Assembly (NCBI GenBank): GCA_963667035.1
Contig: OY762964.1
Location: forward strand, 480,001 to 544,000
Length of the DNA: 64,000 bases
DNA from: Candidatus Cloacimonadales bacterium
GTDB taxonomy: Bacteria > Cloacimonadota > Cloacimonadia > Cloacimonadales > JAFGVF01
Direction: 5' to 3'
The notes under the pieces were generated by a model, which made no database searches, was not told the DNA's origin, and was given only the letters and a program-made list of their open reading frames with translations. The position numbers and the translations under genes are program-made. Shown here piece by piece: positions 2,475 to 58,636 of the stretch; positions within the stretch are counted from its first letter, which is position 1, and every line of letters starts with the position of its first letter.

Positions 2475-2543
2475 CTATTTGACAACCATCATCTTTCCAA
2501 TCGCTTCTTTACCTTCACAGCTAACTTTATAGAAGTATATCCC
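2475..2543 (-). pseudogene. Orphan 3' tail of a secreted-protein gene (GIYFYKVSCEGKEAIGKMMVVK*)
   Basis: Near-identical in DNA and protein to the last 22 codons of 19817..22243 and 22437..24869; homology stops at about 2545. Confidence 0.85.
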
Positions 2544-2792
2544 GAAGGCTAGAGATCTATGTATTATATTAAAGTCCATTTTAAGTAATTCAAGAATCAT
2601 CAGTTCAAATAGAGGAATAGGGAGTTACTTATCTCCCGGATTATAAATTGATTTTGGTTTGAAATCTTTAACGTAGATTTTTGTATTATTTTTATTATTA
2701 GATTTCATAGTATTCATTAGTTAAGTATCTGAAAGTAGATTGTAGATACACCTCTTAAATTATAAAAATAGCTCTTGTATGGGATTCATATT

Positions 2793-2835: not shown

Positions 2836-3013
2836 CAGGAGATGGAAAATAGATAAGTACAGTATGGGGTCTAGATTGACTATGAATTATTATTATGATA
2901 CAGCAATATAATTGCAAATAAAAAGGCAGATTATCTTGATAATCAGCCTCAGACTGTTGACAAAAACATTCTAATTTACATGGATATATTGTTGAAAGTC
3001 ATTTTTCTTCATT

Positions 3014-4486: not shown

Positions 4487-4562
4487 AACCACCTCTAATT
4501 ATGATGGTTTAAGTATAATATTTGGAGAAATCTGTCAATGATTGATGTTCTTATTTTAAGCT

Positions 4563-4603
4563 AAAAAAAGACAAAGCTATGAAATATTACTCATAGCTTT
4601 GTC
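4563..4603 (-). terminator. Intrinsic terminator inside the IS end upstream of the transposase
   Basis: 13-bp stem GACAAAGCTATGA/TCATAGCTTTGTC followed by 7 U on the minus strand. Confidence 0.75.
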
Positions 4604-4612
4604 AGCAGTCTG

Positions 4613-17115: not shown

Positions 17116-17154
17116 GAAAAGTCCTAAAGAGATTTACTAATAGAGTAGGGAAAG

Positions 17155-17180
17155 AGGAGCTTGTTTACTAACAAGCTCCT
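17155..17180 (-). terminator. Terminator-like hairpin after iorB
   Basis: 11-bp stem AGGAGCTTGTT/AACAAGCTCCT. Confidence 0.65.
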
Positions 17181-17187
17181 GATATAT

Positions 17188-17763
17188 TTATTTAGATGCA
17201 GCCTCACTTCCGGCTTTGAGAGCATTAAGGTTTAATTCTACAACCTTATCTCCTTTTGAACCGAAAATATCTTTAATCGCTGTAATGAGTTGTTCCATTG
17301 AGAAACAAGTCTTATCAGCAGCAGCTCCAACCATCACGATATTAGAGGCTAAAACATTACCAAGCTCTTTGGCAATATCTTCTGCGTCTATGAGAATGTG
17401 ATTCTTAACTTTTTTCACATCATTGTAGATAGTTTCTATCTCAGGATAGTTAGGGATGTTAACAAAAGGTTTTGAGTTTGTTATCAACCAACCGTCTTTT
17501 GATAATAAAGGAAGATATCTAAGTCCTTCCATAGGCTCAACAGATAAGATTATATCTGCTTCACCGTCAGGAATCAAGTCAGAATAGATTTCTTTATCAG
17601 AAATACGAAGATGTGACTGTACGTCTCCGCCACGTTGACTCATTCCGTGAACTTCCGCTTGTTTAAGGAAGAGGTTCTCTTTGATAGCAACTTGTCCGAA
17701 TACTTTTGCGATGGTAAGAATACCTTGTCCGCCAACACCGGCTAAAATAATATCTAATTTCAT
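17188..17763 (-). CDS. iorB: Indolepyruvate:ferredoxin oxidoreductase beta subunit
   Basis: GVGGQG, EVHGMSQRGG. Confidence 0.95.
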   Translation of the reverse strand: MKLDIILAGVGGQGILTIAKVFGQVAIKENLFLKQAEVHGMSQRGGDVQSHLRISDKEIYSDLIPDGEADIILSVEPMEGLRYLPLLSKDGWLITNSKPFVNIPNYPEIETIYNDVKKVKNHILIDAEDIAKELGNVLASNIVMVGAAADKTCFSMEQLITAIKDIFGSKGDKVVELNLNALKAGSEAASK

Positions 17764-17780
17764 TTATCTTACCTCCGTCT

Positions 17781-19391
17781 TTATTTCTTTTGAGCTTTCT
17801 TCTGAGCTCTCATTCTACGTGTCATTGTTTGGATGCATTCACGACGAGGGATAATCACGGATACACCTTCGTATGCAAATTCTTCTTTATAAACCTGTAT
17901 CATTTCTTCATGATGTCTCTTGAGAGGAGTTACGACTCTGATGTGGTCTTTCTCAACACCTAAACCGATACAGATATCTTCAAGTTTCTTCTCTGCTGTG
18001 TATGATTGACCACCGGTCATACCTGTTGTAGCGTTATCAAGAATAACAATAACTACGTTGGATTTATCATAGATACAATCAAGCAAACCTGTCATACCGC
18101 TATGTGAAAATGTTGAGTCACCTATAACAGCAACTGCAGGGAACAGACCTGCATCAGCAGCACCTTTAGCCATAGTGATTGATGCACCCATATCAAGACA
18201 TGTGTTAATTGAGTTATAAGGAGGCATAAATCCGAGAGTATAGCAACCTATATCTGAGAACACATGTCCGTCGCCATGCTCTTTTAAAGCTTCATTAAGA
18301 GTTGTGAATGAATCAATGTGAGGACAACCAACGCATAATGCAGGTGGTCTTCCTACGATGTCTTCTGGAATATCAAGTATTTCTTCTTTACCGAAACCAA
18401 GAGCTACGGCAACTTTATTAGGATCCATTTCTCCATCGCGAGAGAAAGTACCGTCAAGACGACCTTTAATTTTGTCGTTTCCTGAGATATAACCTTTAAG
18501 CATCTCTTCAACAACAGGCATACCGTCTTCTACAACGAGTATTTTGTCACATTCGTTATACATTCTTTCAACAAGCTTTCTGGGTAATGGATAATGACTG
18601 ATTTTTAAAATAGGGAAATTACATTCTCTGTTTACAAAGTTCTCCATTACATAGTTATAACCTAAACCACAAGCGATAATACCGAGTGATTTATCGGAAC
18701 CGTCTTTGTAGCTGTTGAATTGTGATTCTTCGGCAGCGGCTACAAGTTCTGATTGCAGGTTAAGAAGGTTCTTATATTTTCTACGTGAGAAAGCAGGTAA
18801 TAGCATGAATTGATTCTTGTCTTCAGGAAGTTGAAGTTTGTTCTCAGCAAGTCTTTCTCTTCTGATAACGCCTGCTCTGGAATGAGAAAGACGAGTTTCA
18901 AGTCTAATCATCACAGGAAGTTTGAATCTTTCAGATAACTCGAAAGCAAGGAAAGCCATATCATAGCATTCTTGCTGATTTGATGGCTCAAGACATGGAA
19001 TCATAGCGAATTTAGCGTAAAAACGTGAGTCTTGTTCGTTCTGTGAAGAGTGCATAGAAGGATCATCTGCAACTGCAACTATTAAACCACCGTTAGCTCC
19101 AACAAAGGCTGAATTCATAAATGGGTCTGCAGCTACATTCAATCCAACGTGCTTCATACATGTCATTGTACGCTTTCCGGCATAAGACATTCCAACAGCT
19201 TCTTCAACAGCTGTTTTTTCGTTTGAAGCCCAAGTTCTGTGAACATTACGCTCTGCTGCTTCTTTGTTATGTTGGATGTACTCCATTATTTCAGTGGATG
19301 GTGTTCCGGGATAGGCAAAACAACCTGACATTCCGGCGTCTAATGCACCTTGTGCCAATGCCTCATCTCCGAGTAACATCAATTTCTGCAT
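17781..19391 (-). CDS. iorA: Indolepyruvate:ferredoxin oxidoreductase alpha subunit
   Basis: YPGTPSTEI, MKHVGLNVA, SSQNEQD, CVGCPH, TPP motif GDSTF..N. Confidence 0.95.
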   Translation of the reverse strand: MQKLMLLGDEALAQGALDAGMSGCFAYPGTPSTEIMEYIQHNKEAAERNVHRTWASNEKTAVEEAVGMSYAGKRTMTCMKHVGLNVAADPFMNSAFVGANGGLIVAVADDPSMHSSQNEQDSRFYAKFAMIPCLEPSNQQECYDMAFLAFELSERFKLPVMIRLETRLSHSRAGVIRRERLAENKLQLPEDKNQFMLLPAFSRRKYKNLLNLQSELVAAAEESQFNSYKDGSDKSLGIIACGLGYNYVMENFVNRECNFPILKISHYPLPRKLVERMYNECDKILVVEDGMPVVEEMLKGYISGNDKIKGRLDGTFSRDGEMDPNKVAVALGFGKEEILDIPEDIVGRPPALCVGCPHIDSFTTLNEALKEHGDGHVFSDIGCYTLGFMPPYNSINTCLDMGASITMAKGAADAGLFPAVAVIGDSTFSHSGMTGLLDCIYDKSNVVIVILDNATTGMTGGQSYTAEKKLEDICIGLGVEKDHIRVVTPLKRHHEEMIQVYKEEFAYEGVSVIIPRRECIQTMTRRMRAQKKAQKK

Positions 19392-19685
19392 AGTATACTC
19401 CTTACTTATTTTATTGTAATTTATTCAAATAATCCACACTTGCTATTTTCAAGCAAGCATTTTTTGCATTGTTTAAATACTCTGTGTTATATAGTAAGTT
19501 ATAAGAACGAGTTGAAGTTACAGCTTTTTTTAATACTCCCTTTGTAACTATTAGACAAGCATGCTTTTTATAAGTGTAGTGGGAAGATAACACTTTATTA
19601 TTGATTTGCAATGTAACTTAATAGGTGTTACTTCTTTTGTATATGGCATGTAAAGACATGTTGGGAATTTGTCTACTTTATTCTT

Positions 19686-19800
19686 TACCGGATATGCGGA
19701 CATCACTTACCTGTCATTACGAAACCTATGGTAAAGTCCGGTTCGTATGTGTTGCAGGCAAGATGTCTACGAACAAAGAATGTCAGGACGTGCCTACCCT
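19686..19800. repeat. Degenerate REP-like hairpin cluster
   Basis: taccgga..gcggacatc ... gcaggcaagatgtctacgaacaaagaa..ggacgtgcctaccct, homologous to the 22263 and 24889 copies, with an internal insertion. Confidence 0.75.
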
Positions 19801-19816
19801 TCAATAATTATATTAT

Positions 19817-22243
19817 TTACTTCACTACCATCATCTTTCCAATGGCTTCACTACCTTCACAGCTGACTTTATAGAAGTATATCCCCGATGCTACAGATTT
19901 ACGATTATTATCCTTGCAATCCCATACTTGTGAGTAATACTCACCGGACTGCTTATCCTCGGATGATAAACCTGCACTTCTTACTAACTGTGAGAAACTC
20001 TGAGTTATCTTAATATCTCTAACCTTCTGACCTTTGATATTGTAAATCTCTAAGGTTGGTCTCTCTATAGGTTTCTTTGGTAATGTAAACTCAATGAATG
20101 CTACTTTCCCATTATTACCGTTAGGTGTTACCGGATTAGGAAAATGAGATACTTTTATTGCAGAAGGAGGGGTGGGGGCTGTTTCATTGTAAATATCTAC
20201 AGTAGGATTATATTCATGTGCTCCCATATCTATTATATTACCCCATACTCTCGGATTACCCGTTATATCCAATGCCGGTAAGTTCATACCTAGTGTATCA
20301 GGTGTTCCTGCATTCACACATGGAGAATTCTCTGTTAGTTGTACCCATCTTGTATCACCAACAGGTATATCACCTTCTACATCTCCACGAAACATCGGAT
20401 TTGCATCAATATTATTTACTCCCCACAATACATTATTGTTGGGATTATCAGCTCCCGGTACTCCTGAAATTCCGTTTCTTACAAGACTGTAATCTATATC
20501 AATATTCGACCATAATGGATTAGTATCTCCTTCTGCTGGAACCCATACACCCATTTCATAAGCTCCGTCAGGATTATAAATAATGCTGTTTCTGATAGTA
20601 TAATCCCCTCCAAATCTAGTCATTGCTATTGGACCTGTATTATGAGCAATTGTCATATTATTAACAAAACACTCATTATGATAAGATGATAACAGAACCA
20701 TTGGCATCCAACTGGTAAAAGATGAAGAGTTGTTATATACAAGTAGATTATTGAGCTCTATATTTCCAACAGTTTCGCTATAACTTGGATTACTATACTG
20801 AAAAATTGTTCCAACTCGATCAACGGTAGTATTTGAGATTACTATATTTGTTGCAGTAACATCACTTCTATCTAACATAACTAATAATGATGTGTTTTCA
20901 TCGTTAACGGTATAAATGTCATTAACCAGAAAATTGTTTATCACTAAATTGTCACACTCATAGAGCATTATACAATTAACACTTTCTTCATAGTTTACAA
21001 TATCCTTAGCGATAATGTTTTCTATTATACTATTATCACAAAATAGGAGACTTAATCCGCATTTTTCATTATAATTATCTGAAAAAATAATGTCATGAAT
21101 ATATAGATTGTTACACCAATTTATTCCCAAGGAGGGCGGGGCGTCAGATTCAACAAATGAAGACTTAAATCGTCCAATCTCAATGTGCTCAGCAGTCTTT
21201 ATATAAATACAGTTTGAATCATATACATCTCCAATAACTACATCTTCATTAGTATTGCCAGCCCCAAGTAACTTAGTGTGTGATTGCATTGATATAGGAA
21301 AGAATTGATTATTGTATACGTTATATGTACCGGGAAGTAGATGGATGGTATTAGGATTCAAACTATTCGGTTGAACAATCCTATTTGCATAAGCAATTGT
21401 TTGTAAAGCAGTTTCGGGAGTAAGACCATCATTGTTATCATTACCAAGAGGAGAGACATATAAATCAGAGTCAATCTGTATGATATATGGATTTAACACT
21501 GATACGTGAGGTGGCGGTGTTTCATTGCTAACAAATGAAATGAAATATCCGTCTGGTTCATCTATAATAATGCTGAGAGTATCAAGAATAATATCAGTAC
21601 TTATAGAAAACTGTAGATAAATATCCTGCACAGCACTATAATTATTGTAAATACTATTTAAGTTGATGGAATCAAAGTATACAGTTCCTTCATGTACTCC
21701 AAGACCACCGCCCCAACCTTTAGCTATGTTGTTTCTTATAATATTGCCAGATAAAGAGATATAGCTATTCTCATACACTCCTATACCCCCAGAATGACTA
21801 GAAGTACTATTCTGAATAATGGAATTATTTAATTCTAGCTGACTGTTATCGTGAACAAGAATGGCTCCACCATAATCATAGTTTTCATTGTAATGATACC
21901 CAATACCGTTTTCCATTAGAAATCCATTAATAATTACATTTGAATTTGTTTCTATCCTAATGCAATTTGACAGAAAGTTAGCATCAATTATTGTGTTTAG
22001 GACATCGTCCCAGTTATTAGTTATCTCATATTGACTTTGTAGTGTTACCGTCTTCTCAAGAATGTCAATATGTTCAAAATATCTACCGGGATAAACATGA
22101 ATGATATCACCATTATTTGCATCATCAACTGCCGATTGGATAGAAGTATATGAATGAGTACCGTCCAGTGATACTTCTCTTAAAGTTGAGTTAAGAAAAC
22201 ATAACGAGACAATAAATACTGTAAGTAATAAAACTCTTCTCAT
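19817..22243 (-). CDS. Secreted right-handed beta-helix (DUF1565/pectin-lyase-like) protein with C-terminal sorting domain, paralog 1
   Basis: Signal peptide, SIQSAVD..GD.I.V.PG.Y, GGAI/GGGL repeats, LYVSPLGND, SPCVNAG..DMGAHE, CTD ending KMMVVK. Confidence 0.85.
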   Translation of the reverse strand: MRRVLLLTVFIVSLCFLNSTLREVSLDGTHSYTSIQSAVDDANNGDIIHVYPGRYFEHIDILEKTVTLQSQYEITNNWDDVLNTIIDANFLSNCIRIETNSNVIINGFLMENGIGYHYNENYDYGGAILVHDNSQLELNNSIIQNSTSSHSGGIGVYENSYISLSGNIIRNNIAKGWGGGLGVHEGTVYFDSINLNSIYNNYSAVQDIYLQFSISTDIILDTLSIIIDEPDGYFISFVSNETPPPHVSVLNPYIIQIDSDLYVSPLGNDNNDGLTPETALQTIAYANRIVQPNSLNPNTIHLLPGTYNVYNNQFFPISMQSHTKLLGAGNTNEDVVIGDVYDSNCIYIKTAEHIEIGRFKSSFVESDAPPSLGINWCNNLYIHDIIFSDNYNEKCGLSLLFCDNSIIENIIAKDIVNYEESVNCIMLYECDNLVINNFLVNDIYTVNDENTSLLVMLDRSDVTATNIVISNTTVDRVGTIFQYSNPSYSETVGNIELNNLLVYNNSSSFTSWMPMVLLSSYHNECFVNNMTIAHNTGPIAMTRFGGDYTIRNSIIYNPDGAYEMGVWVPAEGDTNPLWSNIDIDYSLVRNGISGVPGADNPNNNVLWGVNNIDANPMFRGDVEGDIPVGDTRWVQLTENSPCVNAGTPDTLGMNLPALDITGNPRVWGNIIDMGAHEYNPTVDIYNETAPTPPSAIKVSHFPNPVTPNGNNGKVAFIEFTLPKKPIERPTLEIYNIKGQKVRDIKITQSFSQLVRSAGLSSEDKQSGEYYSQVWDCKDNNRKSVASGIYFYKVSCEGSEAIGKMMVVK

Positions 22244-22262
22244 AGTTCCTGCTTTTTATATA

Positions 22263-22345
22263 TACCGGGTACGCGGACATCCTTGTCCGCAATCTTTGCA
22301 GGCAAGATGCCTGCGAACAAAGAAGGGTAGGATATAGCTGCCCCC
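22263..22345. repeat. REP-like (BIME/REPIN-like) hairpin cluster
   Basis: GGTA-CGCGGACA-TCCT-TGTCCGC, an inverted GCAGGCA-AGA-TGCCTGC and a degenerate third hairpin. Confidence 0.8.
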
Positions 22346-22358
22346 AATATCTATAGTT

Positions 22359-22391
22359 TTATTTGAGTAGCATCATTTTCTTTGTCAAGAT
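22359..22391 (-). pseudogene. Orphan 3' tail (ILTKKMMLLK*) of the 24987-type gene
   Basis: ttatttgagtagcatcattttctttgtcaagat vs ttatttaagtaacatcattttctttgtcaagat at 24987..25019 (31/33 identical). Confidence 0.85.
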
Positions 22392-22436
22392 TTCCTCTTC
22401 TATAAAAAATATTGTGTAAATTATAAACATTTGCGA

Positions 22437-24869
22437 CTATTTCACCACCATCATCTTTCCAATCGCCTCACTTCCTTCACAGCTGACTTTATAGAAGTAT
22501 ATCCCTGATGCTACAGATTTACGATTATTATCCTTGCAATCCCATACTTGTGAGTAATACTCTCCGGCTTGCTTATCCTCGGATGATAAACCTGCACTTC
22601 TTACTAACTGTGAGAAACTCTGAGTTATCTTAATATCTATAACCTTTTGCCCTCTGATATTATAAATCTCTAAGGTTGGTCTCTCTATAGGTTTCTTTGG
22701 TAATGTAAACTCAATGAATGCTACTTTCCCATTATTACCGTTAGGTGTTACAGGATTAGGAAAATGAGATACTTGTATCGAAGAAAGTGGGGTTGGTGCT
22801 GTTTCATTGTAAACATCTACAGTAGGATTATATTCATGTGCTCCCATATCTATTATATTACCCCATACTCTCGGATTACCCGTTATATCCAATGCCGGTA
22901 AGTTCATACCTAGTGTATCAGGTGTTCCGGTATTCACACATGGAGAATTCTCTGTTAGTTGTACCCATCTCGGGTCTCCAACAGGTATATCACCTTCTAC
23001 ATCTCCACGGAACATCGGATTTGCATCAATATTATTTACTCCCCACAATACATTATTATTAGGATTATCTGCTCCCGGTACTCCTGAAATTCCGTTTCTT
23101 ACAAGACTGTAATCTATATCAGTATTCGACCATAATGGATTAGTATCTCCACTTGCCGGAGTCCAGACACTCATTTCACATCCTCCTTCCGGATTATGAA
23201 TTATACTGTTTCTGATAGCATAATCTCCTCCAAATCTTGTGATTGCTGTGGGACTTGTATTGTTTGCAATTGTCATATTATTGAGAAGACATTCATTATG
23301 ATAGGTAGAGAAGTTAAACATAGGCATATGAGCCCAATAATAAGCAGCAGTATTATTATATGCTATGAAATTACTTAATTCAAGGTTACCATATGTATAA
23401 CTGTAACTCGGATTAGAATATTGGAAGATTATACCACTTCCATAAGTTGTGCAATTTGAGATTATCATATTGTTCACAGTAACATCACTTCTGGAAAATG
23501 AAACACAATGATGAAATGCATCATAATTTGTATTTGTCACATTGTTGACAATTACGTTGCTAAAATTGATATTATCACATTCATATGTTTTTATGCAAAT
23601 TAGTCTATCAATATTGTTTTGTATATTTTTTATTGTTACATTTTCAATCAAACAATTAGAACTAGAGCTCAAATTTATTCCAGGAATATAATTGTAGTTG
23701 GTCTCAAACATCATATCATGAAGATATAATCTATTACAACTCCCTACACCTAATGTTGATTCTGTCCCGGCTTGAGAGAATGTAAATCTAATCTTGCTAA
23801 TTTCAACATTTTCAACCATGTATAGTTTAACACTATTCATACCATATATATCCCCAATGGTCACTTCTTCAATCATACTACCTGTACCAAGTAACTTAGT
23901 GTGTGATTGCATTGATATAGGAAAGAATTGATTATTGTATGTATTATATGTACCGGGAAGTAGATGAATGGTATTAGGATTCAAACTATTCGGTTGAACA
24001 ATCCTATTTGCATAAGCAATTGTTTGTAATGCCGTTTCGGGAGTAAGACCATCATTGTTATCATTACCAAGAGGAGAGACATATAAATCTGCATCAATTT
24101 GTGTTAGCCAACTGTTTTGAGCTGAAACAGCAGGTGGACTTGAGCCATCATCATGATAGTAGGAGACAAAGTAACCGTCTGGCTCATCCAATGTGATGCT
24201 TAATGTATCAAGAATAATATCTGTACTTGTAGAGAACTGTAAATATATATCCTGGACAATACTATAATTATTGTATATACTATTCAAATTAGATTGATCA
24301 AAGATTATGTCACCATTTTTGACTCCAAGACCACCACCCCAATAAATAGCCCTGTTATTTCTTATTGTATTGTTTGAGAGAGAAACAGTGCTACCATTAT
24401 TACATAAAACTCCACCATTATACATCCCATAATTATTTTCAATAATGCAGTTTACTATGTCTACATCACACTCGTTATTAATAGAAATACCGCCACCATA
24501 ACTTACATCATCTCCATAAGAAAAACCAATCCCATTAGTTAATACAAATCCATTTAACAGAACTGTGCAATTGTCCTCAATCCTAATGCAGTTTGATTGG
24601 GAGTCTGCATCAATTATTGTGTTTAGGACATCGTCCCAGTTATTAGTTATCCCATATTGGCTTCGTAGTGTTACTGTCTTCTCAAGAATGTCAATATGTT
24701 CAAAATATCTACCTGGATAAACATGAATGATATCACCATTATTCGCATCATCGACTGCCGATTGGATAGATATATATGAATGAGTACCGTCCAGTGATAC
24801 TTCTCTTAAAGTTGAGTTAAGAAAACATAACGAGACAATAAATACTGTAAGTAATAAAACTCTTCTCAT
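22437..24869 (-). CDS. Secreted beta-helix protein with C-terminal sorting domain, paralog 2
   Basis: Tandem paralog of 19817..22243 with near-identical N-terminus, internal block and C-terminus. Confidence 0.85.
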   Translation of the reverse strand: MRRVLLLTVFIVSLCFLNSTLREVSLDGTHSYISIQSAVDDANNGDIIHVYPGRYFEHIDILEKTVTLRSQYGITNNWDDVLNTIIDADSQSNCIRIEDNCTVLLNGFVLTNGIGFSYGDDVSYGGGISINNECDVDIVNCIIENNYGMYNGGVLCNNGSTVSLSNNTIRNNRAIYWGGGLGVKNGDIIFDQSNLNSIYNNYSIVQDIYLQFSTSTDIILDTLSITLDEPDGYFVSYYHDDGSSPPAVSAQNSWLTQIDADLYVSPLGNDNNDGLTPETALQTIAYANRIVQPNSLNPNTIHLLPGTYNTYNNQFFPISMQSHTKLLGTGSMIEEVTIGDIYGMNSVKLYMVENVEISKIRFTFSQAGTESTLGVGSCNRLYLHDMMFETNYNYIPGINLSSSSNCLIENVTIKNIQNNIDRLICIKTYECDNINFSNVIVNNVTNTNYDAFHHCVSFSRSDVTVNNMIISNCTTYGSGIIFQYSNPSYSYTYGNLELSNFIAYNNTAAYYWAHMPMFNFSTYHNECLLNNMTIANNTSPTAITRFGGDYAIRNSIIHNPEGGCEMSVWTPASGDTNPLWSNTDIDYSLVRNGISGVPGADNPNNNVLWGVNNIDANPMFRGDVEGDIPVGDPRWVQLTENSPCVNTGTPDTLGMNLPALDITGNPRVWGNIIDMGAHEYNPTVDVYNETAPTPLSSIQVSHFPNPVTPNGNNGKVAFIEFTLPKKPIERPTLEIYNIRGQKVIDIKITQSFSQLVRSAGLSSEDKQAGEYYSQVWDCKDNNRKSVASGIYFYKVSCEGSEAIGKMMVVK

Positions 24870-24888
24870 AGTTCCTGCTTTTTATATA

Positions 24889-24970
24889 TACCGGGTACGC
24901 GGACATCCTTGTCCGCAATCCTTGCAGGCAAGATGCCTGCGAACAAAGAAGGGTAGGACATGCCTACCCT
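24889..24970. repeat. REP-like hairpin cluster, best-preserved copy
   Basis: Three stems: GCGGACA/TGTCCGC, GCAGGCA/TGCCTGC, AGGGTAGG/CCTACCCT. Confidence 0.85.
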
Positions 24971-24986
24971 CTAACGATTATATTGT

Positions 24987-27900
24987 TTATTTAAGTAACA
25001 TCATTTTCTTTGTCAAGATTTTATCGTCTGCTTTGAGGCGATAAAAATAAACTCCGGACGAAACTTTCTTATTATCATTATCAATACCATCCCATGTAAC
25101 CGAATGATATCCCGGTTGCATCCTATCATTAATCAGAGTAGTAACTCTTTGACCTTTTACATTATAAACATTAAGCTCGACATTCGTTTCATTAGCTATA
25201 TTATAATTAATTGTTGTTGTTGGATTAAAAGGATTAGGATAGTTACCCATAAGGTTAGTTTTTAAAGGTACTAAACCATTCTCAACATCCCCTTTTTTAA
25301 ATGATACAAAGGCAACATCTGTGCTTGAATTAGGAGAGACTCGCAATTTCTTAGTCACATATCTTTTTTCAACTTCATCCATTACTGCATAATTAGATAT
25401 TCTTGATTTCGACTTGCTATATGAATATGCAAGCTGGAAAGTAAGTTCTTCACCAATTAATGAAGGATCATCAACAACATAAGCTTTCAGAATTACATCA
25501 TCGGATTTTATTACTTCAGCTCCTTTGCATTCGTTATCGACAAACACTGCAATCTCTATCGGCTTATCGCCTTCATCATAACCGTCCATGTCAAATTTAC
25601 AAACGATCGGATAATATCCGGATTGTGGTTGATATGAGAATACCGTAGGTAAATCTATTACTACAGGACTTCCATTGGAATTTGTATCTTGCCATTCTAA
25701 ATCAAAGGTACTTGTACTAGGATTACCATCACTATAATTAGTAACAAATCTCACAGCTTCACCATATTTAAAAGTAGGAGAAACTCCTACTCCCATACTA
25801 GTTAGCCAAGTAGAACCAACTGTTGACTGCCCCTGCGGACAGTTACGCTCGGAAAGATTAATTGCACACCAATCCTTAGTATCTATTCTAGAAAGCTTAT
25901 CTAAAGTATTTTGTTCAATTGCTTCAAAGATATTCTGATTACTATGTAAGAAATATCCAGCTAAAGTTCGTGCAGGTTCTCCAGCTACAGTTAACTCTTC
26001 TACCTTAACAGTTTTCTCATCATTATTTGTTGATCCTGCTTTGAAACCATCAAACTCAATATAAATTGGAGCTTCCACGACTAATTCATTTAAATCAATT
26101 AGATAGCCCATAGTAGATTTAACTGTATCATTAATGTTTTCCCAGATATTATTATCAATATCCCAAATGATAGAACCTTCAAAATCATAATCAAACTCAA
26201 TTTCAGTCAGATAAAATGGATTATCACTAAACAAATACTCACTTGCTTGTTCACCAAACACATAGTTTGCTTTAGTAAAACTGCTTCCCCTTAAACCATC
26301 AAGACCGGGTATACATACCCAGTTTATTTCGTCGGGATTAAGCTCTATAACACTGTTCTCAACAACATACTCACCATTTTCTTGAGGTAAAAATGGCTTA
26401 GCTCCAATATCCATTCTAGACATATCAGAATCTCTGTCTTCGAATTGTGTCAGCATATCTCCGTTTGTGTCTACTACGTTTTCTTTATACCAAGGAATTG
26501 TATCTCCGTCTAAATCAGGATTTCCCGAATTGATACACGGCGATTTAGTTGTGCTATTCCAGATAGGTATGTAGTTAGAGTCAAGTTGTGTACTGGTACC
26601 AGTCATGCAATTATTTCCGGTTATACTTAGATTGGAATAACAGTAAGAAAATGTGTTAAGTTGTGATAATATTTCTTGTGATAGTGAATTGTAACCAAAA
26701 ATAATACAATTAACTATATTGTTTGTTGTTGATGTATTAAGAATTAATCTACTTGGATAGATTATGTTATATATACTATTTATAACAGTATTATTAAAGA
26801 TGTCACAATTTTGGGAACTATTGATAATAACTGGAGTTGAAGTAACAACTCTAGCAAGTTCAGTAGGATTCGATAACTCAAGAATATTACTTTTTAATAA
26901 GATATCTCTATTATCAGAGCCTATTTCTGGTAACTCTTGGAGAATTCCTTCAATGAACCCAGAGAAGACGTTATTAGAAATTAGAATAGGCTCAGTAAGT
27001 TGGTCATTTCTGGTATCAAATTCTGCAATTGTATAAACATTCTTTACGTAGTTATTCATAATGCTTGATGAGTTATAGTTTCTTGTTTCATCGTAACAGT
27101 AAAGACCTGTTTCGTTCTGAAAATCATAAGTATATGATTCCTCTGATTTAAAAAAAGTAGTTTCATTATTATATTCATTAATTCTGATGTCATTCTGGAA
27201 TTTGTTATTGATTATACAAAAATCTGATGCTCTTTCTAAACAGATGCCAAATCCACATTCTGTGAATTTGTTACCATCAATAATAGTAAGATAATAGCGA
27301 TAATAACTATTATTCGCTTGGTTGAAAGCAACATCCATCTTAATTGGATACTCATTTAAGGATGAAGCTGCTTTGAATATACTATCTAAAATAATCCATT
27401 GAGGAACACTCATATTATTATTCGTATTATAAATACTATTTGCATAGTTTAAATTCTCTCTCAAATGGCTGTTACTAATACGTTCACCAAAACTACATTT
27501 TACAATTTCACAATTTCTAGTAAATGCTCTAACTCCTGCCCCAAGTCTTTCAATAGGTAGTCCAGTAGGATTTCTTTGCTGAATTGTAAATCCACCTACA
27601 ACAACTGTTGACTCATTGTAAATTGGACATGTTTGCCAGTCTGACAGGATTTCTATTCCATTTACAATCTGTTGCATATTTGGTTCAGTTACTAGAAAAC
27701 AATAATCAGTTGCGTATTCTGTAACTTCTATTGGAGAGCTATTTATATATGATTTAACAGAAACAAATTCAACTAAATCTGGAGTCTCATCATCATCATC
27801 AATTGACCTGATAATAAATGCTTGGTTGAAGTATGTTTCTATTGGCAAACCATTATTATCGTAATTCACAAAAAAATGGAACTGACTGTTCTCATTATAA

Positions 27901-28109
27901 GGACTTCCATAAGTCGTAATAACATCTGGATACCCATTGTAATGATTAGGTAAAGATGGAGCATTATTAAATGGATAGTAAAATTCATCATAATAATGTA
28001 ACAGGCTATTGTATCCAGGAACATCTGGATTCAAGTTTATTGCAATTTTTATACTATATAGCGAAATGCAAATTAATGCAACAATTATCAGTAATATAAC
28101 TTTTTTCAT
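24987..28109 (-). CDS. Large secreted protein, beta-helix-like region plus C-terminal FlgD-Ig/T9SS-A-like sorting domain
   Basis: MKKVILLIIVALICISLYS signal; SPCINSG..MDIGA; NYPNPFNPTTTI...SSGVYFYRL...KKMMLLK. Confidence 0.82.
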   Translation of the reverse strand: MKKVILLIIVALICISLYSIKIAINLNPDVPGYNSLLHYYDEFYYPFNNAPSLPNHYNGYPDVITTYGSPYNENSQFHFFVNYDNNGLPIETYFNQAFIIRSIDDDDETPDLVEFVSVKSYINSSPIEVTEYATDYCFLVTEPNMQQIVNGIEILSDWQTCPIYNESTVVVGGFTIQQRNPTGLPIERLGAGVRAFTRNCEIVKCSFGERISNSHLRENLNYANSIYNTNNNMSVPQWIILDSIFKAASSLNEYPIKMDVAFNQANNSYYRYYLTIIDGNKFTECGFGICLERASDFCIINNKFQNDIRINEYNNETTFFKSEESYTYDFQNETGLYCYDETRNYNSSSIMNNYVKNVYTIAEFDTRNDQLTEPILISNNVFSGFIEGILQELPEIGSDNRDILLKSNILELSNPTELARVVTSTPVIINSSQNCDIFNNTVINSIYNIIYPSRLILNTSTTNNIVNCIIFGYNSLSQEILSQLNTFSYCYSNLSITGNNCMTGTSTQLDSNYIPIWNSTTKSPCINSGNPDLDGDTIPWYKENVVDTNGDMLTQFEDRDSDMSRMDIGAKPFLPQENGEYVVENSVIELNPDEINWVCIPGLDGLRGSSFTKANYVFGEQASEYLFSDNPFYLTEIEFDYDFEGSIIWDIDNNIWENINDTVKSTMGYLIDLNELVVEAPIYIEFDGFKAGSTNNDEKTVKVEELTVAGEPARTLAGYFLHSNQNIFEAIEQNTLDKLSRIDTKDWCAINLSERNCPQGQSTVGSTWLTSMGVGVSPTFKYGEAVRFVTNYSDGNPSTSTFDLEWQDTNSNGSPVVIDLPTVFSYQPQSGYYPIVCKFDMDGYDEGDKPIEIAVFVDNECKGAEVIKSDDVILKAYVVDDPSLIGEELTFQLAYSYSKSKSRISNYAVMDEVEKRYVTKKLRVSPNSSTDVAFVSFKKGDVENGLVPLKTNLMGNYPNPFNPTTTINYNIANETNVELNVYNVKGQRVTTLINDRMQPGYHSVTWDGIDNDNKKVSSGVYFYRLKADDKILTKKMMLLK

Positions 28110-28750
28110 ATGAATCTCCAAAGGTTTAAATTAATAGAAAATTACAGACTATGTAATACATCAATAATAGAGATTAGGATTATCCAAATTAACAGAGATT
28201 CTATTTAATTGGATCCCTCATTGAGTAGATTCAAGAATCTATGTCATAATTACCCCCAATAATCAAAGCTTATTATAAGATTCCAGTTTTCACATAATCT
28301 AATAAATGGTTATAGAATATGTCATTGCATTTTTAATAACTAGTTCATTGATAGTCTATCTGGCAGTGCCAAAACTTTATATAATAAGTATATCTACTAC
28401 TAGTGATAATAAGAAATATTTATTAAATCCTAATTCTTAGTGCCAATGTTATATTATGAAAATATATGTGTCAAACAATTTTAATCTTATAAATAATAGC
28501 TAAAAACTAATATACTACCGGCAATCTCTGCTTACCCTAATTTTTCTCTATGACGACACCTGTTGATAACATGAACAATCATCTAAGAATAAATCTTTTT
28601 GGCTTCAGTGAATAAAATGAAGAAATAGACTGTGGGTTGTTACATAGTTAGTATATAGATTTTCCTTTATTATGATAAATGACTAACCAATGTAGTATAT
28701 CAACATGTACCAAGCTCAATCGATGGTAGCTTATCATTCTTCAAACCAAT

Positions 28751-28781
28751 AAAAAAAGCCCGTACTTAATCGTACGGGCTT
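28751..28781 (-). terminator. Intrinsic terminator of the oxidoreductase-mce operon
   Basis: AAGCCCGTAC/GTACGGGCTT stem plus U run on the minus strand. Confidence 0.85.
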
Positions 28782-28802
28782 AAAGAATTATCTATAAATT
28801 AC

Positions 28803-29213
28803 TTAGTCGTGATGTTTTTCCTTACAGAGTTCTAGTAATACACCACCTGTTGATTTAGGATGCAAGAAAGCTATATCAGCTCCATGTGCCCCTGGTCTGG
28901 GTTCCTTATCAATAAGGCGTATTCCTTTTTCTTCAGCTTTTTGAAGCTCAGCAGGTAAATCATCAACAGCAAGGGCTATATGCTGAATGCCTTCACCCTT
29001 TTTCTCTATGAATTTAGCCACGGGGCTATCTTCACTGGTCGGACATAGAAGTTCAAGACGGCACTCTTTTCCTACAGTGAAGAAAGCAACTTTGATTTTC
29101 TGAGATTCAACAACTTCTATACTTTCCAGTTCCAATCCCATGCTTTGATAAAATTCAATAGCTTTATCAAGGTCTTTCACTGCAATTCCGATATGACTAA
29201 GTTTATTTATCAT
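28803..29213 (-). CDS. mce: Methylmalonyl-CoA epimerase
   Basis: HIGIAV, GEGIQHIAL, GAHGADIAFLHPKSTGGVLLEL; ATG 29213 likely start. Confidence 0.95.
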   Translation of the reverse strand: MINKLSHIGIAVKDLDKAIEFYQSMGLELESIEVVESQKIKVAFFTVGKECRLELLCPTSEDSPVAKFIEKKGEGIQHIALAVDDLPAELQKAEEKGIRLIDKEPRPGAHGADIAFLHPKSTGGVLLELCKEKHHD

Positions 29214-29796
29214 CGTTAGTCTCCTCTTCATCAGAAACTTCTCGTTCTTTCAGCTCTTTAGCTGCAAAGCTGAATCCCAGTTTCATTGCTTTTATGTTTA
29301 AATCAACAAAAGCAGGTTTAACTGTTGAACGGATAGCTTTCTCAAGAGATTTCTCATCAACAATTCCCGATATTTTTACCAAGAATGATAATGAAAGAAT
29401 ATTTGTCACAAGTTCTGTTCCGAGTTCGTTTTGAGCAATGTCGGTGAAAGGTAGCTCATAAGTATTAGGAGCTTGAATAGCAATATGCTTAACATGAGAT
29501 GAATCAACAATAAGGATTCCACCCGGTTTAAGATCAAGAACGTATTTATCACAAGCTTCCTGAGTCAGACTAAGAAGTATGTCCTGTCTGATTGCTTCAG
29601 GGAAGTTAATATCTTCGTTACTGATAATAACATCGGCTCTTGAATAACCACCGCGTGATTCAGGTCCGTAACTTTGAGTTTGAGTTACTTTGTTGCCTTC
29701 TAAAACTGCGGCATTGGCAAGGATAATTCCACCAAGGATGAGTCCCTGACCACCACTTCCACTGAGTCTGATCTCTTTGAATAATGTTTCGCTCAT
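29203..29796 (-). CDS. korC: 2-oxoacid:ferredoxin oxidoreductase gamma subunit
   Basis: GSGGQG, QSYGPESRGG. Confidence 0.9.
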   Translation of the reverse strand: MSETLFKEIRLSGSGGQGLILGGIILANAAVLEGNKVTQTQSYGPESRGGYSRADVIISNEDINFPEAIRQDILLSLTQEACDKYVLDLKPGGILIVDSSHVKHIAIQAPNTYELPFTDIAQNELGTELVTNILSLSFLVKISGIVDEKSLEKAIRSTVKPAFVDLNIKAMKLGFSFAAKELKEREVSDEEETNDDK

Positions 29797-29804
29797 GGGT
29801 ACTC

Positions 29805-30635
29805 CTATTTGCCTTTAACTTTGTCAACTAGAGCCTGATACTTATCACAGTATTCAGGGACTTCTACTTGCTTCATGACGCCACGAATAATCTTACCTTC
29901 GATTTTCTCGGGAGGTAATTTATCCATTGCAGTATTAAGAATTGAGTTATCTCTCATGTGCATCATCATCTCGGGAGCTCCGCCTTTTTTATTCAGACGC
30001 CCAAAGATAACAGGACATGCACTTACAACATCAATAATTGAGAATCCTTTGTGTTGCATAGCATCAACAATCATCTTCTGTAATTCGATTGTATGGAAAG
30101 CAGTTGTTCGTGCAACATAGGTAGCACCGGCACCGATAGCTAAATTACAAAGGTCAAAAGGAGCATCTAAATTACCATAAGGAGCTGTAGTTGCTCTTGC
30201 ATCTACAGGAGTTGTAGGAGAGTATTGTCCACCGGTCATACCATAGATATTATTATTAATAACTATAACAGTGATGTCAATATTTCTTCTAGCGGCATGA
30301 ATAAGGTGATTACCACCGATAGCGGAACTGTCACCGTCTCCTGTAACAACAATCACTTTCATATCAGGGTTATAGGTCTTAACACCTGTAGCAAATGCGA
30401 TAGCTCTTCCATGAAGAGTATGTAATGTATTAAGATCAATGTAAACAGGCATACGGCTTGAACAACCGATTCCTGAAACCATTGTAATATTATTTCTGTC
30501 TAAGTTTTGTTCTGCTATGGCTCTGATGATTGTACCAAGGATTGTTCCATTGCTACAACCTGCACACCATACGTGTGGGAACTTTTTGTCATGACGGAGG
30601 AAATTATGTACTACTCTTTGCGGTACCTTTTTCAT
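29805..30635 (-). CDS. korB: 2-oxoacid:ferredoxin oxidoreductase beta subunit
   Basis: WCAGC, GIGCS, GDGD..IGGNH, YGMTGGQ. Confidence 0.92.
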   Translation of the reverse strand: MKKVPQRVVHNFLRHDKKFPHVWCAGCSNGTILGTIIRAIAEQNLDRNNITMVSGIGCSSRMPVYIDLNTLHTLHGRAIAFATGVKTYNPDMKVIVVTGDGDSSAIGGNHLIHAARRNIDITVIVINNNIYGMTGGQYSPTTPVDARATTAPYGNLDAPFDLCNLAIGAGATYVARTTAFHTIELQKMIVDAMQHKGFSIIDVVSACPVIFGRLNKKGGAPEMMMHMRDNSILNTAMDKLPPEKIEGKIIRGVMKQVEVPEYCDKYQALVDKVKGK

Positions 30636-58609: not shown

Positions 58610-58636
58610 GCGGACAGGATGTCCGCGTACCCGGTA
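58610..58636 (-). repeat. Single REP-like element
   Basis: Reverse complement TACCGGGTACGCGGACATCCTGTCCGC matches the first hairpin of the 22263 and 24889 clusters. Confidence 0.85.

What the first reader, a model, noticed from the sequence alone, without database searches (positions are those of the whole stretch)
19686..28109. Cassette-like array of secreted proteins: gene-CTD-stop-REP spacer units with orphan-tail scars
Seen: three co-oriented large secreted genes, each followed by a homologous multi-hairpin spacer (24889, 22263, 19686). Two different genes (24987 and 19817) have their stops at a near-identical distance from the third hairpin (cctaccct..attatatt.ttta). The middle spacer retains a scar of the 24987-type tail (ILTKKMMLLK*), and a tail of the other type sits at 2475. 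Inference: an expanding or shuffling surface-protein array in which recombination occurs at conserved CTD-coding ends and REP-like spacers, loosely integron-like. No integrase or RAYT is in the window.
Basis: partly seen in the sequence, partly recalled or inferred. Interest (0 to 1): 0.7.

Follow-up and report, generated by a model that had tools for sequence, protein, structure and literature searches.

The report
Duplicated secreted-protein genes with passenger REP hairpins
Three neighbouring genes for secreted beta-helix proteins in an uncultured Cloacimonadales bacterium are ordinary tandem copies kept alike at their ends by gene conversion, and the hairpins between them are a transcription terminator plus two copies of a genome-wide mobile repeat, not an integron-like cassette machine.

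Summary
Three co-oriented T9SS cargo genes (A 1044 aa, B 810 aa, C 808 aa) are each followed by a homologous hairpin spacer. The middle spacer holds an A-type tail scar, and an orphan B-type tail lies at 2475-2558.

The stop-proximal hairpin is an intrinsic terminator. The other two are a REP doublet of a genus-restricted family, about 96 units, with two RAYT-like transposase genes flanked by the same hairpins elsewhere in the genome.

The array is one of seven A-B(n) arrays in this genome, and A-then-B order is conserved across Cloacimonadales. Synonymous divergence within one gene pair runs from 0.00-0.04 at the ends to 0.6-0.75 in the centre, which shows patchy gene conversion.

Two arrays lack REPs yet show the same mosaic. 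46 of 57 REP clusters are not next to CTD genes. No tyrosine recombinase lies within 60 kb of any array. REPs are therefore passengers, and the integron-like reading is not supported.

A congeneric genome carries a different gene at the syntenic site, so arrays are gained and lost.

The parts
24987..28121 (-). Gene A: 1044-aa T9SS cargo (type A sorting domain, tail ...ILTKKMMLLK*). It is the lead gene of the array; paralogs A6 and A7 carry Beta_helix domains.
24949..24971 (-). H1 of spacer 1: intrinsic terminator of gene A (GAGGGTAGGCATGTCCTACCCTT followed by CTTTGTT). It starts 18 nt after the stop.
   Evidence: Flagged by the terminator scan. Folds as a 9-bp stem. Stem keeps pairing through T/C with A/G double changes in other arrays.
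24924..24940 (-). H2 of spacer 1: REP unit GCAGGC-ATCTT-GCCTGC, inverted relative to H3.
   Evidence: the same doublet flanks the RAYT-like gene
24889..24916 (-). H3 of spacer 1: REP unit GCGGAC-AAGGAT-GTCCGC with its GTACCCGGTA tag.
24867..24888 (-). Short leader with an AGCAGGA Shine-Dalgarno-like motif and the ATG of gene B. It is conserved in front of B-type genes of arrays 1-5.
22437..24869 (-). Gene B: 810-aa T9SS cargo with two right-handed beta-helix domains, a choice-of-anchor Q domain and a CTD (tail ...GKMMVVK*).
22358..22429 (-). 72-nt scar: remnant of the last ~20 codons and stop of an A-type gene (...YTIFFIEEEILTKKMMLLK*). It is 94-96% identical in arrays 2 and 7.
22325..22345 (-). 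H1 of spacer 2: terminator copy with two stem mismatches (the copy in array 2 is perfect).
22263..22314 (-). REP doublet of spacer 2 (H2 at 22298-22314; H3 plus tag at 22263-22290).
19817..22243 (-). Gene C: 808-aa paralog of B (72.6% aa identity overall; mosaic of 50-100% nt identity).
19677..19816 (-). Spacer 3: decayed copy of the A-type downstream spacer. H1 and H2 are mismatched and H3 is split by about 45 nt. No B-type gene follows.
2475..2558 (-). Orphan B-type CTD tail with stop. The gene body is gone. It lies about 400 nt from an IS element.
58610..58635 (+). Solitary REP unit of the same family (GCGGAC-AGGAT-GTCCGC-GTACCCGGT), just after a terminator-like hairpin and unrelated to CTD genes.

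Best explanation
The region is one of seven copies in this genome of an old, order-wide gene module. In each copy a roughly 1,050-aa beta-helix T9SS cargo gene (A) is followed by one to three roughly 810-aa double-beta-helix T9SS cargo genes (B type).

Shown:
- B and C are tandem paralogs.
- The duplicated unit carried along the last ~20 codons of A. That is the scar.
- The ends of the genes and the spacers are kept near-identical by repeated short-patch gene conversion, within arrays and between arrays, while the central beta-helix part is saturated with change.
- Copies also die: there are an orphan tail, broken genes and truncated 5' remnants.
- Each spacer has three parts: (i) the intrinsic terminator of the upstream gene; (ii) a doublet of inverted REP units from a genus-restricted REP family, whose RAYT-like transposase genes lie elsewhere in the genome flanked by the same units; (iii) a ~25-nt leader with the ribosome-binding site of the next gene.

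Inferred:
- The REP doublet entered one spacer in this lineage and was then spread to eight spacers by the same duplication and conversion that homogenises the gene ends. It is a passenger, not the engine.
- The genes are transcribed from A's promoter, with partial termination at H1.
- The REP hairpins may stabilise or modulate the message, as REPs do in E. coli operons.
For: Paralogy and arrays: tblastn finds 13 close and 3 distant B paralogs in 7 loci, each headed by an A-type gene or its remnant.

Order-wide module: B is found in 28 of 31 related genomes. Of 21 distinct A matches, 18 have a B match directly downstream on the same strand, 2 sit at contig ends and 1 has none listed.

Gene conversion:
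- The proportion of synonymous differences within one pair varies strongly along the gene. B1/C1: 0.04 (aa 0-35), 0.75 (aa 330-500), 0.16-0.18 (aa 560-811). B2/C2: 0.72 falling to 0.03. C7/D7: 0.00, then 0.69, then 0.00.
- Runs of identical third-codon positions are 186 codons (B2/C2), 144 (B7/C7), 111 (C7/D7) and 43 (B1/C1). The permutation maxima are 32-44, with 0 of 2000 permutations reaching the observed value. The distant control pair B1/B3 shows no excess (1181 of 2000).
- The spacers of arrays 1 and 2 are 94.6-95.7% identical while the proteins are 61-65% identical.
- The scar is 95.8% identical in array 7, whose proteins are 38% identical.

Terminator: H1 is flagged by the scan. GGGYAGG-type hairpins follow only 7 of 139 CTD stops, all in this family, and the other CTD genes have their own terminators.

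REP family:
- 96 strict units in 57 clusters, with at least 9 stem variants that all stay complementary.
- 66 of 96 units lie outside any ORF of 120 aa or more, although only 11.8% of the genome does.
- The GCGGAC-type unit is found in 4 of 4 genomes of the genus and 0 of 27 genomes of 19 other genera; the reversed control gives 0.

RAYT: a 184-aa ORF scores 50 bits on Y1_Tnp (cut-off 23), and its best NCBIfam match is REP_Tyr_transpos. It is flanked on both sides by REP doublets. A second such gene lies at 2.952 Mb.

Passenger status: arrays 6 and 7 have no REPs yet show the same tandem copies and the same mosaic. The four B-type genes of congener G001 whose upstream regions I read have the A-tail remnant and terminator but no REP.

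Gene death: an orphan tail, B5 with an internal stop, A3 and A5 remnants, and a decayed 5' fragment after C3.
Against: - No transcript data exist, so operon structure, H1 efficiency and any REP effect on mRNA are inferred. No RNA run is listed.
- No promoter for B or C was found between H1 and the ATG. That fits read-through from A, but it could also mean an unrecognised promoter type.
- The history of spacer 3 is unresolved.
- REP clusters are about 4-fold enriched after CTD stops: 11 of 57 clusters, against 139 CTD genes in a genome whose gene total I did not count (a few thousand assumed for 3.1 Mb). I explain this by co-duplication in two paralog families, not by a test that removes phylogenetic dependence.
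- The RAYT-like ORF is below NCBIfam's curated cut-off (70.5 vs 80 bits).
- High conservation of the spacers could in part reflect selection on a regulatory role rather than conversion alone.
Confidence: 0.8

Rival explanations
1. One reading: an integron-like or REP/RAYT-driven cassette array. Units of gene, CTD end, stop and REP spacer are inserted, excised or shuffled by site-specific or single-strand recombination at the hairpins.
For: The spacers do contain genuine REP doublets, identical in type to those flanking a RAYT-like gene. A and C have identical stop-to-hairpin spacing. Orphan tails and scars exist. The syntenic site in a congener lacks the array.
Against: - All 'cassettes' are paralogs of one family in an ancient conserved A-B(n) order.
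- Arrays 6 and 7 expand and convert without REPs.
- 46 of 57 REP clusters are not near CTD genes.
- The 4 tyrosine recombinase matches are all more than 60 kb from any array.
- No Y1 transposase lies in the window, and none of the 13 PF01797 match positions lies beside any of the seven arrays.
- The hairpin with the fixed distance to the stop is a terminator, not a REP.
- The spacer folds as three short independent hairpins, not as one long bulged attC-like stem.
- Identity between arrays 1 and 2 ends at the ATG of the next gene, not at a hairpin.
Confidence: 0.05
2. A selected surface-variation system. The conserved 3' third, spacer and signal-peptide-coding 5' end serve as recombination handles, so the 13 paralogs can exchange or renew their variable beta-helix cores. 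The benefit would be escape from phage or grazers, or new glycan specificities.
For: Variable centre between homogenised ends. Short converted patches also occur inside the centre: 96% identity at nt 796-943 in B1/C1 and 95% at nt 943-1093 in B3/C3. The fold class is shared with phage tailspikes, polysaccharide lyases and adhesins. A precedent exists for T9SS cargo in Porphyromonas gingivalis, read in passages of PMC5266723.
Against: Segment trees for the 5' end, centre and 3' end give the same unrooted groupings, so no core swap between arrays is visible. pN in the centre (0.3-0.5) stays below pS (0.6-0.8), so positive selection is not shown. Homogenised ends are the expected by-product of conversion among tandem paralogs without any selected function.
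Confidence: 0.2
3. The spacers are conserved mainly because they are regulatory RNA or DNA (attenuator plus REP stabiliser in an A-B-C operon), not because of gene conversion.
For: The terminator stem shows compensatory changes across arrays and species. sp1 folds far better than shuffles. REPs in E. coli 3'UTRs and intercistronic regions are reported to affect mRNA; I saw only the abstracts listed.
Against: Conservation extends over about 750 nt of coding sequence, including synonymous sites, which regulation cannot explain. Arrays 6 and 7 and congener G001 do without the REPs. sp3 has decayed where no gene follows, which fits either view.
Confidence: 0.15
4. Assembly artefact: the repeated units were produced by mis-assembly of paralogs.
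For: Short-read contigs of the holder runs break at the repeated parts, and none spans the array.
Against: B and C differ at 27% of residues, with long unique central parts. Contigs of three runs of one sample cover the unique parts with no differing letters (table 8). The same architecture (B tail, scar, terminator, REP) stands in a contig of a second study (X4) and in six other loci.
Confidence: 0.02

Closest known systems
REP / BIME elements and their RAYT transposases (Nunvar et al. 2010, PMC2817692; REPINs, PMC3116915)
   Same: Short GC-rich palindromes with a conserved head next to the stem. About 100 copies, mostly extragenic. Often in inverted doublets or clusters. Stem variants keep complementarity. 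IS200-like Y1 transposase genes are flanked by the same units. Lineage-restricted.
   Different: The head is GTAC/GTTC(C), as in GTACCCGGTA, instead of GT(A/G)G. The host is Cloacimonadota: none of the 12 REP/RAYT papers listed contains 'Cloacimon', the other 22 were not shown, and Nunvar et al. proposed an origin within Gammaproteobacteria. At least two RAYT-like genes have different flanking stems, and the ORF scores below NCBIfam's RAYT cut-off.
Concerted evolution and gene conversion in tandem surface-protein paralogs, including T9SS cargo of Porphyromonas gingivalis (kgp/rgpA/hagA domain rearrangements, PMC5266723)
   Same: Paralogous secreted or surface proteins with conserved C-terminal regions that exchange sequence by homologous recombination, giving mosaics.
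   Different: Here the family is a beta-helix family in an uncultured anaerobe, arranged as A-B(n) modules at seven loci. Conversion also covers the intergenic spacers. No link to a host immune system is known.
Integron gene cassettes (IntI, attI, attC)
   Same: Co-oriented genes, each followed by a structured repeat. No promoter is evident in front of the downstream genes.
   Different: There is no integrase or attI. The repeats are a terminator plus REPs, not attC. All genes belong to one family. The unit boundaries lie inside genes (the scar), as expected for unequal or illegitimate recombination.
Right-handed parallel beta-helix carbohydrate-active enzymes, tailspikes and adhesins (such as pectate lyase Pel9A 1ru4, PL6 alginate lyase 7dmk, P22 tailspike 1tsp, PfbA 4mr0)
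   Same: The AlphaFold model of B (pLDDT 80.1) shows two beta-helix domains. Foldseek gives 20 matches at E <= 0.001, among them these proteins.
   Different: TM-scores are low (0.1-0.25 by query length) and identities are 8-16%. No catalytic residues were examined, and there are no sequence relatives in the PDB. Enzyme versus adhesin remains open.

Membership tests
REP elements | Short imperfect palindrome present in many copies | tested here: met
   96 strict units in 57 clusters. 25 exact GCGGAC...GTCCGC and 11 GCAGGCA...TGCCTGC hairpins in a 35% GC genome.
REP elements | Predominantly extragenic location | tested here: met
   66 of 96 units lie outside every ORF of 120 aa or more, against 11.8% of genome positions. 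ORFs were called mechanically, so some 'inside' cases are over-extended ORFs.
REP elements | Conserved GT(A/G)G head next to the palindrome (Nunvar 2010, passage seen) | tested here: not met
   The conserved flank is GTACC (54 cases) or GTTCC (22 cases) among the 2,792 candidate GC-stem hairpins scanned on both strands. That makes the head GTAC/GTTC, not GTAG/GTGG: a variant head.
REP elements | Stem variants keep complementarity | tested here: met
   Stems GCGGAC, GCAGGC, GCGAGC, GCCGGC, GCGAAC, GCCAGC, GCAAGC, GCAGAC and GCCTGC each pair with their exact complement.
RAYT (REP-associated tyrosine transposase) | IS200/IS605-type Y1 (HUH) transposase domain | tested here: met
   PF01797 scores 50 bits (cut-off 23) for the ORF at genome 1509010-1509567. 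The translation contains HVHVLI.
RAYT (REP-associated tyrosine transposase) | Passes the curated RAYT model | tested here: inconclusive
   NF047646 is the best NCBIfam match but scores 70.5 bits against a cut-off of 80.
RAYT (REP-associated tyrosine transposase) | Gene flanked by REPs on both sides | tested here: met
   REP doublets lie at 1508863-1508990 and 1509600-1509642. The second gene, at 2952221-2952475, is flanked by doublets at 2952095-2952194 and 2952815-2952885. The strict inverted orientation of the nearest units holds for the second gene but not clearly for the first.
Integron | IntI tyrosine recombinase with attI next to the array | tested here: not met
   There are 4 PF00589 matches in the genome (600035, 818902, 905259, 2317991). 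All are more than 60 kb from each of the seven arrays.
Integron | One attC (single long imperfect hairpin) per cassette | tested here: not met
   sp1 folds as three separate short stem-loops: one is a terminator and two are REPs. No attC covariance model was run.
Integron | Cassettes carry unrelated genes | tested here: not met
   B and C are 72.6% identical paralogs, and 13 close paralogs occupy all arrays.
T9SS cargo (type A CTD) | C-terminal sorting domain (TIGR04183 / PF18962) | tested here: met
   A scores 42.2 bits and B 24.0 bits (cut-off 23). C scores 16.1, below the cut-off, but its last 90 residues are nearly identical to B's. The CTD of the model matches the PorU CTD at rmsd 3.6 over 119 columns.
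T9SS cargo (type A CTD) | A T9SS machinery is present in the organism | not tested
   I did not search for PorK/L/M/N/SprA/PorU/PorV. 139 CTD-bearing gene ends in the genome and a literature statement that T9SS may occur in Cloacimonadota (PMC11285876, passage seen) make it likely.
Intrinsic (Rho-independent) terminator | GC-rich stem-loop followed by a T-rich run just after a stop codon | tested here: met
   24971-24949 has 9 pairs and the tail CTTTGTT. Homologous hairpins with TTTTTT tails follow A3, A5, A6 and C3. Function as a terminator was not tested.

The most novel reading that the evidence does not exclude
The conserved block made of the CTD-coding 3' third, A-tail scar, terminator, REP doublet and signal-peptide 5' end is a dedicated recombination handle. 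RAYT nicking at the REP doublet would start gene-conversion tracts that run into the flanking genes. The REP/RAYT system would then be co-opted to drive diversification and copy-number change of a 13-member secreted beta-helix family. That would be a first case of REPs acting as recombination initiators for a surface-protein repertoire.
Probability: 0.07. Interest if true: 0.7.

Novelty: new member of a known kind. Interest (0 to 1): 0.35.

Why it matters
The finding splits a suggestive 'cassette array' into known parts: a terminator, REPs, tandem paralogs and gene conversion. Similar gene-plus-hairpin arrays elsewhere need not be read as new mobile systems.

Three modest points appear to be undescribed, as far as the searches show:
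- A REP/RAYT system in Cloacimonadota with a GTAC-type head, restricted to one genus.
- An order-wide A-B(n) module of T9SS beta-helix cargo, amplified to seven loci in one 3.1-Mb genome.
- Very sharp mosaic conversion, with synonymous divergence from 0 to saturation inside one gene pair, extending across the intergenic spacers.

For people studying these uncultured digester and sediment bacteria, the family is a candidate for variable cell-surface glycan binding or degradation.

Tried and rejected
- Rfam. An E-value scan of 17000-31000 gave only two chance-level hits (mir-885 at E 0.16, SpF43 at E 0.85), neither on a spacer.
- PDB by sequence. No relatives for A or B at E <= 0.01.
- Sequencing runs. 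Five runs were listed and no RNA holder is on record.
- Reads laid on the array. The four runs I laid (X1-X4) are all Logan contigs. They break at the repeats and none spans the array. The joints seen have sides of 20-32 nt or come from a 90-95% relative (X4), so they show no structural variant. One X4 contig does show a B tail, scar and sp1-like terminator in a second study.
- Segment trees. The 5' end, centre and 3' end give the same unrooted groupings, so there is no evidence for swapped cores between arrays. Only the branch lengths differ: median end branch 0.26 in the centre, 0.018 at the 3' end and 0.032 at the 5' end.
- Read-through of B's TAG into the scar. The scar is in frame in arrays 1 and 2, but in array 7 a TAA follows after six codons. 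I take the in-frame reading as coincidence.
- A promoter inside the A tail (the TTGACA of codons Leu-Thr). No match meeting the scan's criteria is listed there, though 28 weaker matches were not shown, and a terminator would lie downstream of it. Left as an open idea only.
- Conversion boundary at the REP. Between arrays 1 and 2, identity continues through the REPs and the RBS and stops just after the ATG. The boundary is therefore not REP-linked.
- REP-to-CTD association. 11 of 57 clusters lie within 260 nt after a CTD stop. One of these is a false positive (the terminator at 1302103), and two true cases (476807, 2077694) were missed by the strict filter. All true cases fall in two paralog families, so I do not count this as a functional link.
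- Strain-level comparison of array order. The closest genome held (G001, neighbouring housekeeping proteins 89-95% identical) has B-type genes only 60% identical or less. No close strain was available.


Full report
**What is there.**
On the minus strand of the window lie three genes: A (24987-28121, 1044 aa), B (22437-24869, 810 aa) and C (19817-22243, 808 aa).
- A carries a clear T9SS type A sorting domain: TIGR04183 42.2 bits (cut-off 23), and Pfam Por_Secre_tail 33.3 bits.
- B passes TIGR04183 at 24.0 bits and has a choice-of-anchor Q domain.
- C scores 16.1 bits, below the cut-off, but shares B's last 90 residues almost exactly.
- An AlphaFold model of B, built from 21 aligned family members (mean pLDDT 80.1), shows two right-handed beta-helix domains, a disordered linker at residues 618-693 and a C-terminal beta-sandwich.
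- Foldseek matches pectate and alginate lyases, pectin methylesterases, phage tailspikes, the adhesin PfbA and the PorU CTD. TM-scores are low, so only the fold class is assigned.
- A's paralogs A6 and A7 carry Pfam Beta_helix domains.
- Relatives fetched from public genomes are titled Candidatus Cloacimonadales and Candidatus Zophobacter.

**The spacers.**
Read in gene orientation, spacer 1 has these parts in order:
- the stop of A;
- 18 nt;
- H1, GAGGGTAGGCATGTCCTACCCTT followed by CTTTGTT;
- H2, GCAGGC-ATCTT-GCCTGC;
- H3, GCGGAC-AAGGAT-GTCCGC followed by GTACCCGGTA;
- 22 nt with AGCAGGA and the ATG of B.

Spacer 2 has the same H2, H3 and leader, and an H1 with two stem mismatches. Between B's TAG and H1 it carries the scar, a 72-nt element ending in ...ILTKKMMLLK*.

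Spacer 3 follows C's stop after the same 18 nt, but all three hairpins are damaged. H3 is split by about 45 nt, and no gene follows.

sp1 folds into three separate stem-loops (z -3.59, 0 of 200 shuffles as stable). sp3 does not stand out (z -0.92).

**The hairpins are two different things.**

*H1 is a terminator.*
- The terminator scan flags it.
- Homologous hairpins after other A-type genes have TTTTTT tails.
- The stem changes by paired substitutions (GGGTAGG/CCTACCC versus GGGCAGG/CCTGCCC) across arrays and in another species.
- Among 139 CTD-gene ends in the genome, only 7 are followed by this hairpin type, all in this gene family. Most other CTD genes have their own unrelated terminators.

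*H2 and H3 are REPs.*
- The genome holds 25 GCGGAC...GTCCGC and 11 GCAGGCA...TGCCTGC hairpins.
- A stricter census gives 96 units in 57 clusters. They have a purine-rich loop (AAGGAT, AGGGAT, AAGAT, TGGAA), the flank GTACC/GTTCC and at least nine stem variants that all remain complementary.
- 66 of 96 lie outside any ORF of 120 aa or more, while only 11.8% of the genome does.
- A 184-aa ORF at genome 1509010-1509567 has a Y1_Tnp domain (50 bits, cut-off 23). Its best NCBIfam match is the REP-associated tyrosine transposase model, although below the cut-off (70.5 vs 80 bits).
- That ORF is flanked on both sides by REP doublets, including the same GCAGGC and GCGGAC pair as the spacers.
- A second such gene at 2.952 Mb is flanked by GCGAAC/GCGAGC doublets.
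- The GCGGAC-type unit occurs in all 4 genomes of the genus (18, 4, 11 and 1 copies) and in none of 27 genomes of 19 other genera of the order.
- This fits what Nunvar et al. describe for REPs and RAYTs, except that the head is GTAC rather than GT(A/G)G. I read passages of PMC2817692.

**The array is one of seven, in an old module.**
- tblastn finds 13 close and 3 distant B paralogs at seven loci: genome 499.8-508.1 kb (the window), 471.8-479.1, 433.5-439.2, 664.6-672.9, 206.0-216.9, 1198.6-1208.9 and 2075.3-2078.0 kb. Each is headed by an A-type gene or its remnant.
- The B family is found in 28 of 31 related genomes, often in runs of two or three.
- Of 21 distinct A matches in 12 genomes, 18 have a B match directly downstream on the same strand, 2 lie at contig ends and 1 has none among the listed matches.

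**How the copies evolve.**
- Nucleotide identity between copies is strongly mosaic. For B1/C1 it is 100% around the start, 50-65% in the centre, one 96% patch at nt 796-943, and 89-97% over the last 750 nt.
- The proportion of synonymous differences in one pair ranges from 0.00-0.04 to 0.6-0.75.
- Runs of identical third-codon positions reach 186, 144, 111 and 43 codons. Permutation maxima are 32-44, with 0 of 2000 permutations as long. The distant pair B1/B3 shows nothing.
- Conversion also acts between arrays. The spacers of arrays 1 and 2 are 94.6-95.7% identical while their proteins are 61-65% identical. The scar with the preceding roughly 190 nt of coding sequence is 91-96% identical in array 7, whose proteins are 38% identical.
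- The scar marks a duplication junction: B's stop joined to a point about 20-28 codons before an A-type stop. All four orphan A-type scars lie between two B-type genes.
- Copies also decay: the orphan B tail in the window about 400 nt from a DDE-transposase IS element, B5 with an internal stop, A3 and A5 remnants, and a decayed 5' fragment after C3.

**Are the REPs the engine?** The evidence says no.
- Arrays 6 and 7 have no REP in any spacer, yet they have two and three tandem copies and the same end-homogenised mosaic.
- The four B-type genes of congener G001 whose upstream regions I read have the truncated A tail and terminator upstream but no REP.
- 46 of 57 REP clusters are not within 260 nt of a CTD stop. 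The rest fall in the B arrays and in one trio of paralogs.
- Identity between arrays 1 and 2 runs through the REPs and stops just after the next ATG.
- No tyrosine recombinase lies within 60 kb of any array.
- The simplest account is that a REP doublet landed between terminator and ribosome-binding site in this lineage and was copied with the rest of the block.

**Locus dynamics.**
In congener G001 the flanking genes are 89-95% identical. Between the glyoxalase gene and the 536-aa oxidoreductase gene lies a 549-aa ORF that gave no match to A, B or C, not the array. Its translation looks PEGA/FGE-sulfatase-like to my eye; I ran no family search on it. Arrays are thus gained or lost between species. 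No closer strain was available.

**Mechanism, with status.**

Shown:
- tandem paralogy;
- the scar junction;
- mosaic conversion;
- REP family membership of H2 and H3;
- the terminator-like nature of H1;
- gene decay.

Inferred:
- transcription of A-B-C from a promoter upstream of A, with partial termination at H1;
- a possible REP effect on mRNA;
- the REP doublet as a passenger;
- an extra recombination at the CTD-coding tail to explain why A-type downstream sequence abuts C's stop.

No RNA data could be found.

**Literature.**
- No paper held both 'Cloacimon' and T9SS beyond three general ones.
- None of the 12 listed REP/RAYT papers mentions Cloacimonadota; 34 papers held two of the three terms.
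- One paper links T9SS cargo with gene conversion, in P. gingivalis (passages read).
- Supplements were not consulted.

**Verdict.**
The 'REP-like' and 'recombination at conserved ends' parts of the reading hold. The integron-like cassette mechanism does not. The finding is a new member of known kinds, of moderate interest.

Noticed in passing
window 2954-4608: A 1.65-kb IS element with a 492-aa DDE transposase (DUF772 + DDE_Tnp_1_6). One end motif has 28 copies in the genome and the other has 14. Copies often sit directly after the terminators of CTD genes. This one lies about 400 nt from the orphan B-type tail and may have caused the loss of that gene's body.
   Followed up: partly
genome 471842-479054 (just before the window start; L002:1842-9054): A second A-B-C array only 21 kb from the first. 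Its spacers, including the scar, are 94.6-95.7% identical to the window's, but its proteins are 61-65% identical.
   Followed up: yes
genome 1651373-1651471, 1653554-1653596 and 1660482-1661165: Runs of up to four same-strand REP units at about 27-nt spacing lie inside mechanically called ORFs of 120 aa or more. Either REPs have invaded a coding region or the ORF is spurious.
   Followed up: no
L036, L038, L039 (G001), about 130-260 nt upstream of B-type genes: Another repeat (…AATAGCCCCGGGTTTTGTGAACCCGGGGTCA…GGGGTTCAACGATT) abuts the truncated A tail exactly at TTGACAAAG in three separate loci of the congeneric genome. Its nature is unknown.
   Followed up: no
genome 2075468-2077810 (L007): In array 5 the A-type tail has lost its stop (TAA to TTA), so an open frame runs through the terminator and REP spacer into B5. 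B5 itself has an internal TGA. The array appears to be decaying.
   Followed up: partly
genome 1780265, 1782343 and 2362299: Three paralogous CTD genes (tail QRSNKMLLMK*) are each followed 53 nt downstream by a REP doublet of other stem types (GCCGGC/GCGAGC). This is the only other CTD-REP association in the genome.
   Followed up: partly
window 3-2156 (-), continuing before the window start: A gingipain-like Peptidase_C25 gene with propeptide and Ig-like domains lies between the orphan tail and array 2.
   Followed up: no
L034:1018-2667 (G001): At the site syntenic to the array, the congener has a 549-aa ORF. Its translation looks like repeated PEGA-type segments plus a C-terminal FGE-sulfatase-like domain. 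This is judged by eye from the translation; no family search was run.
   Followed up: no
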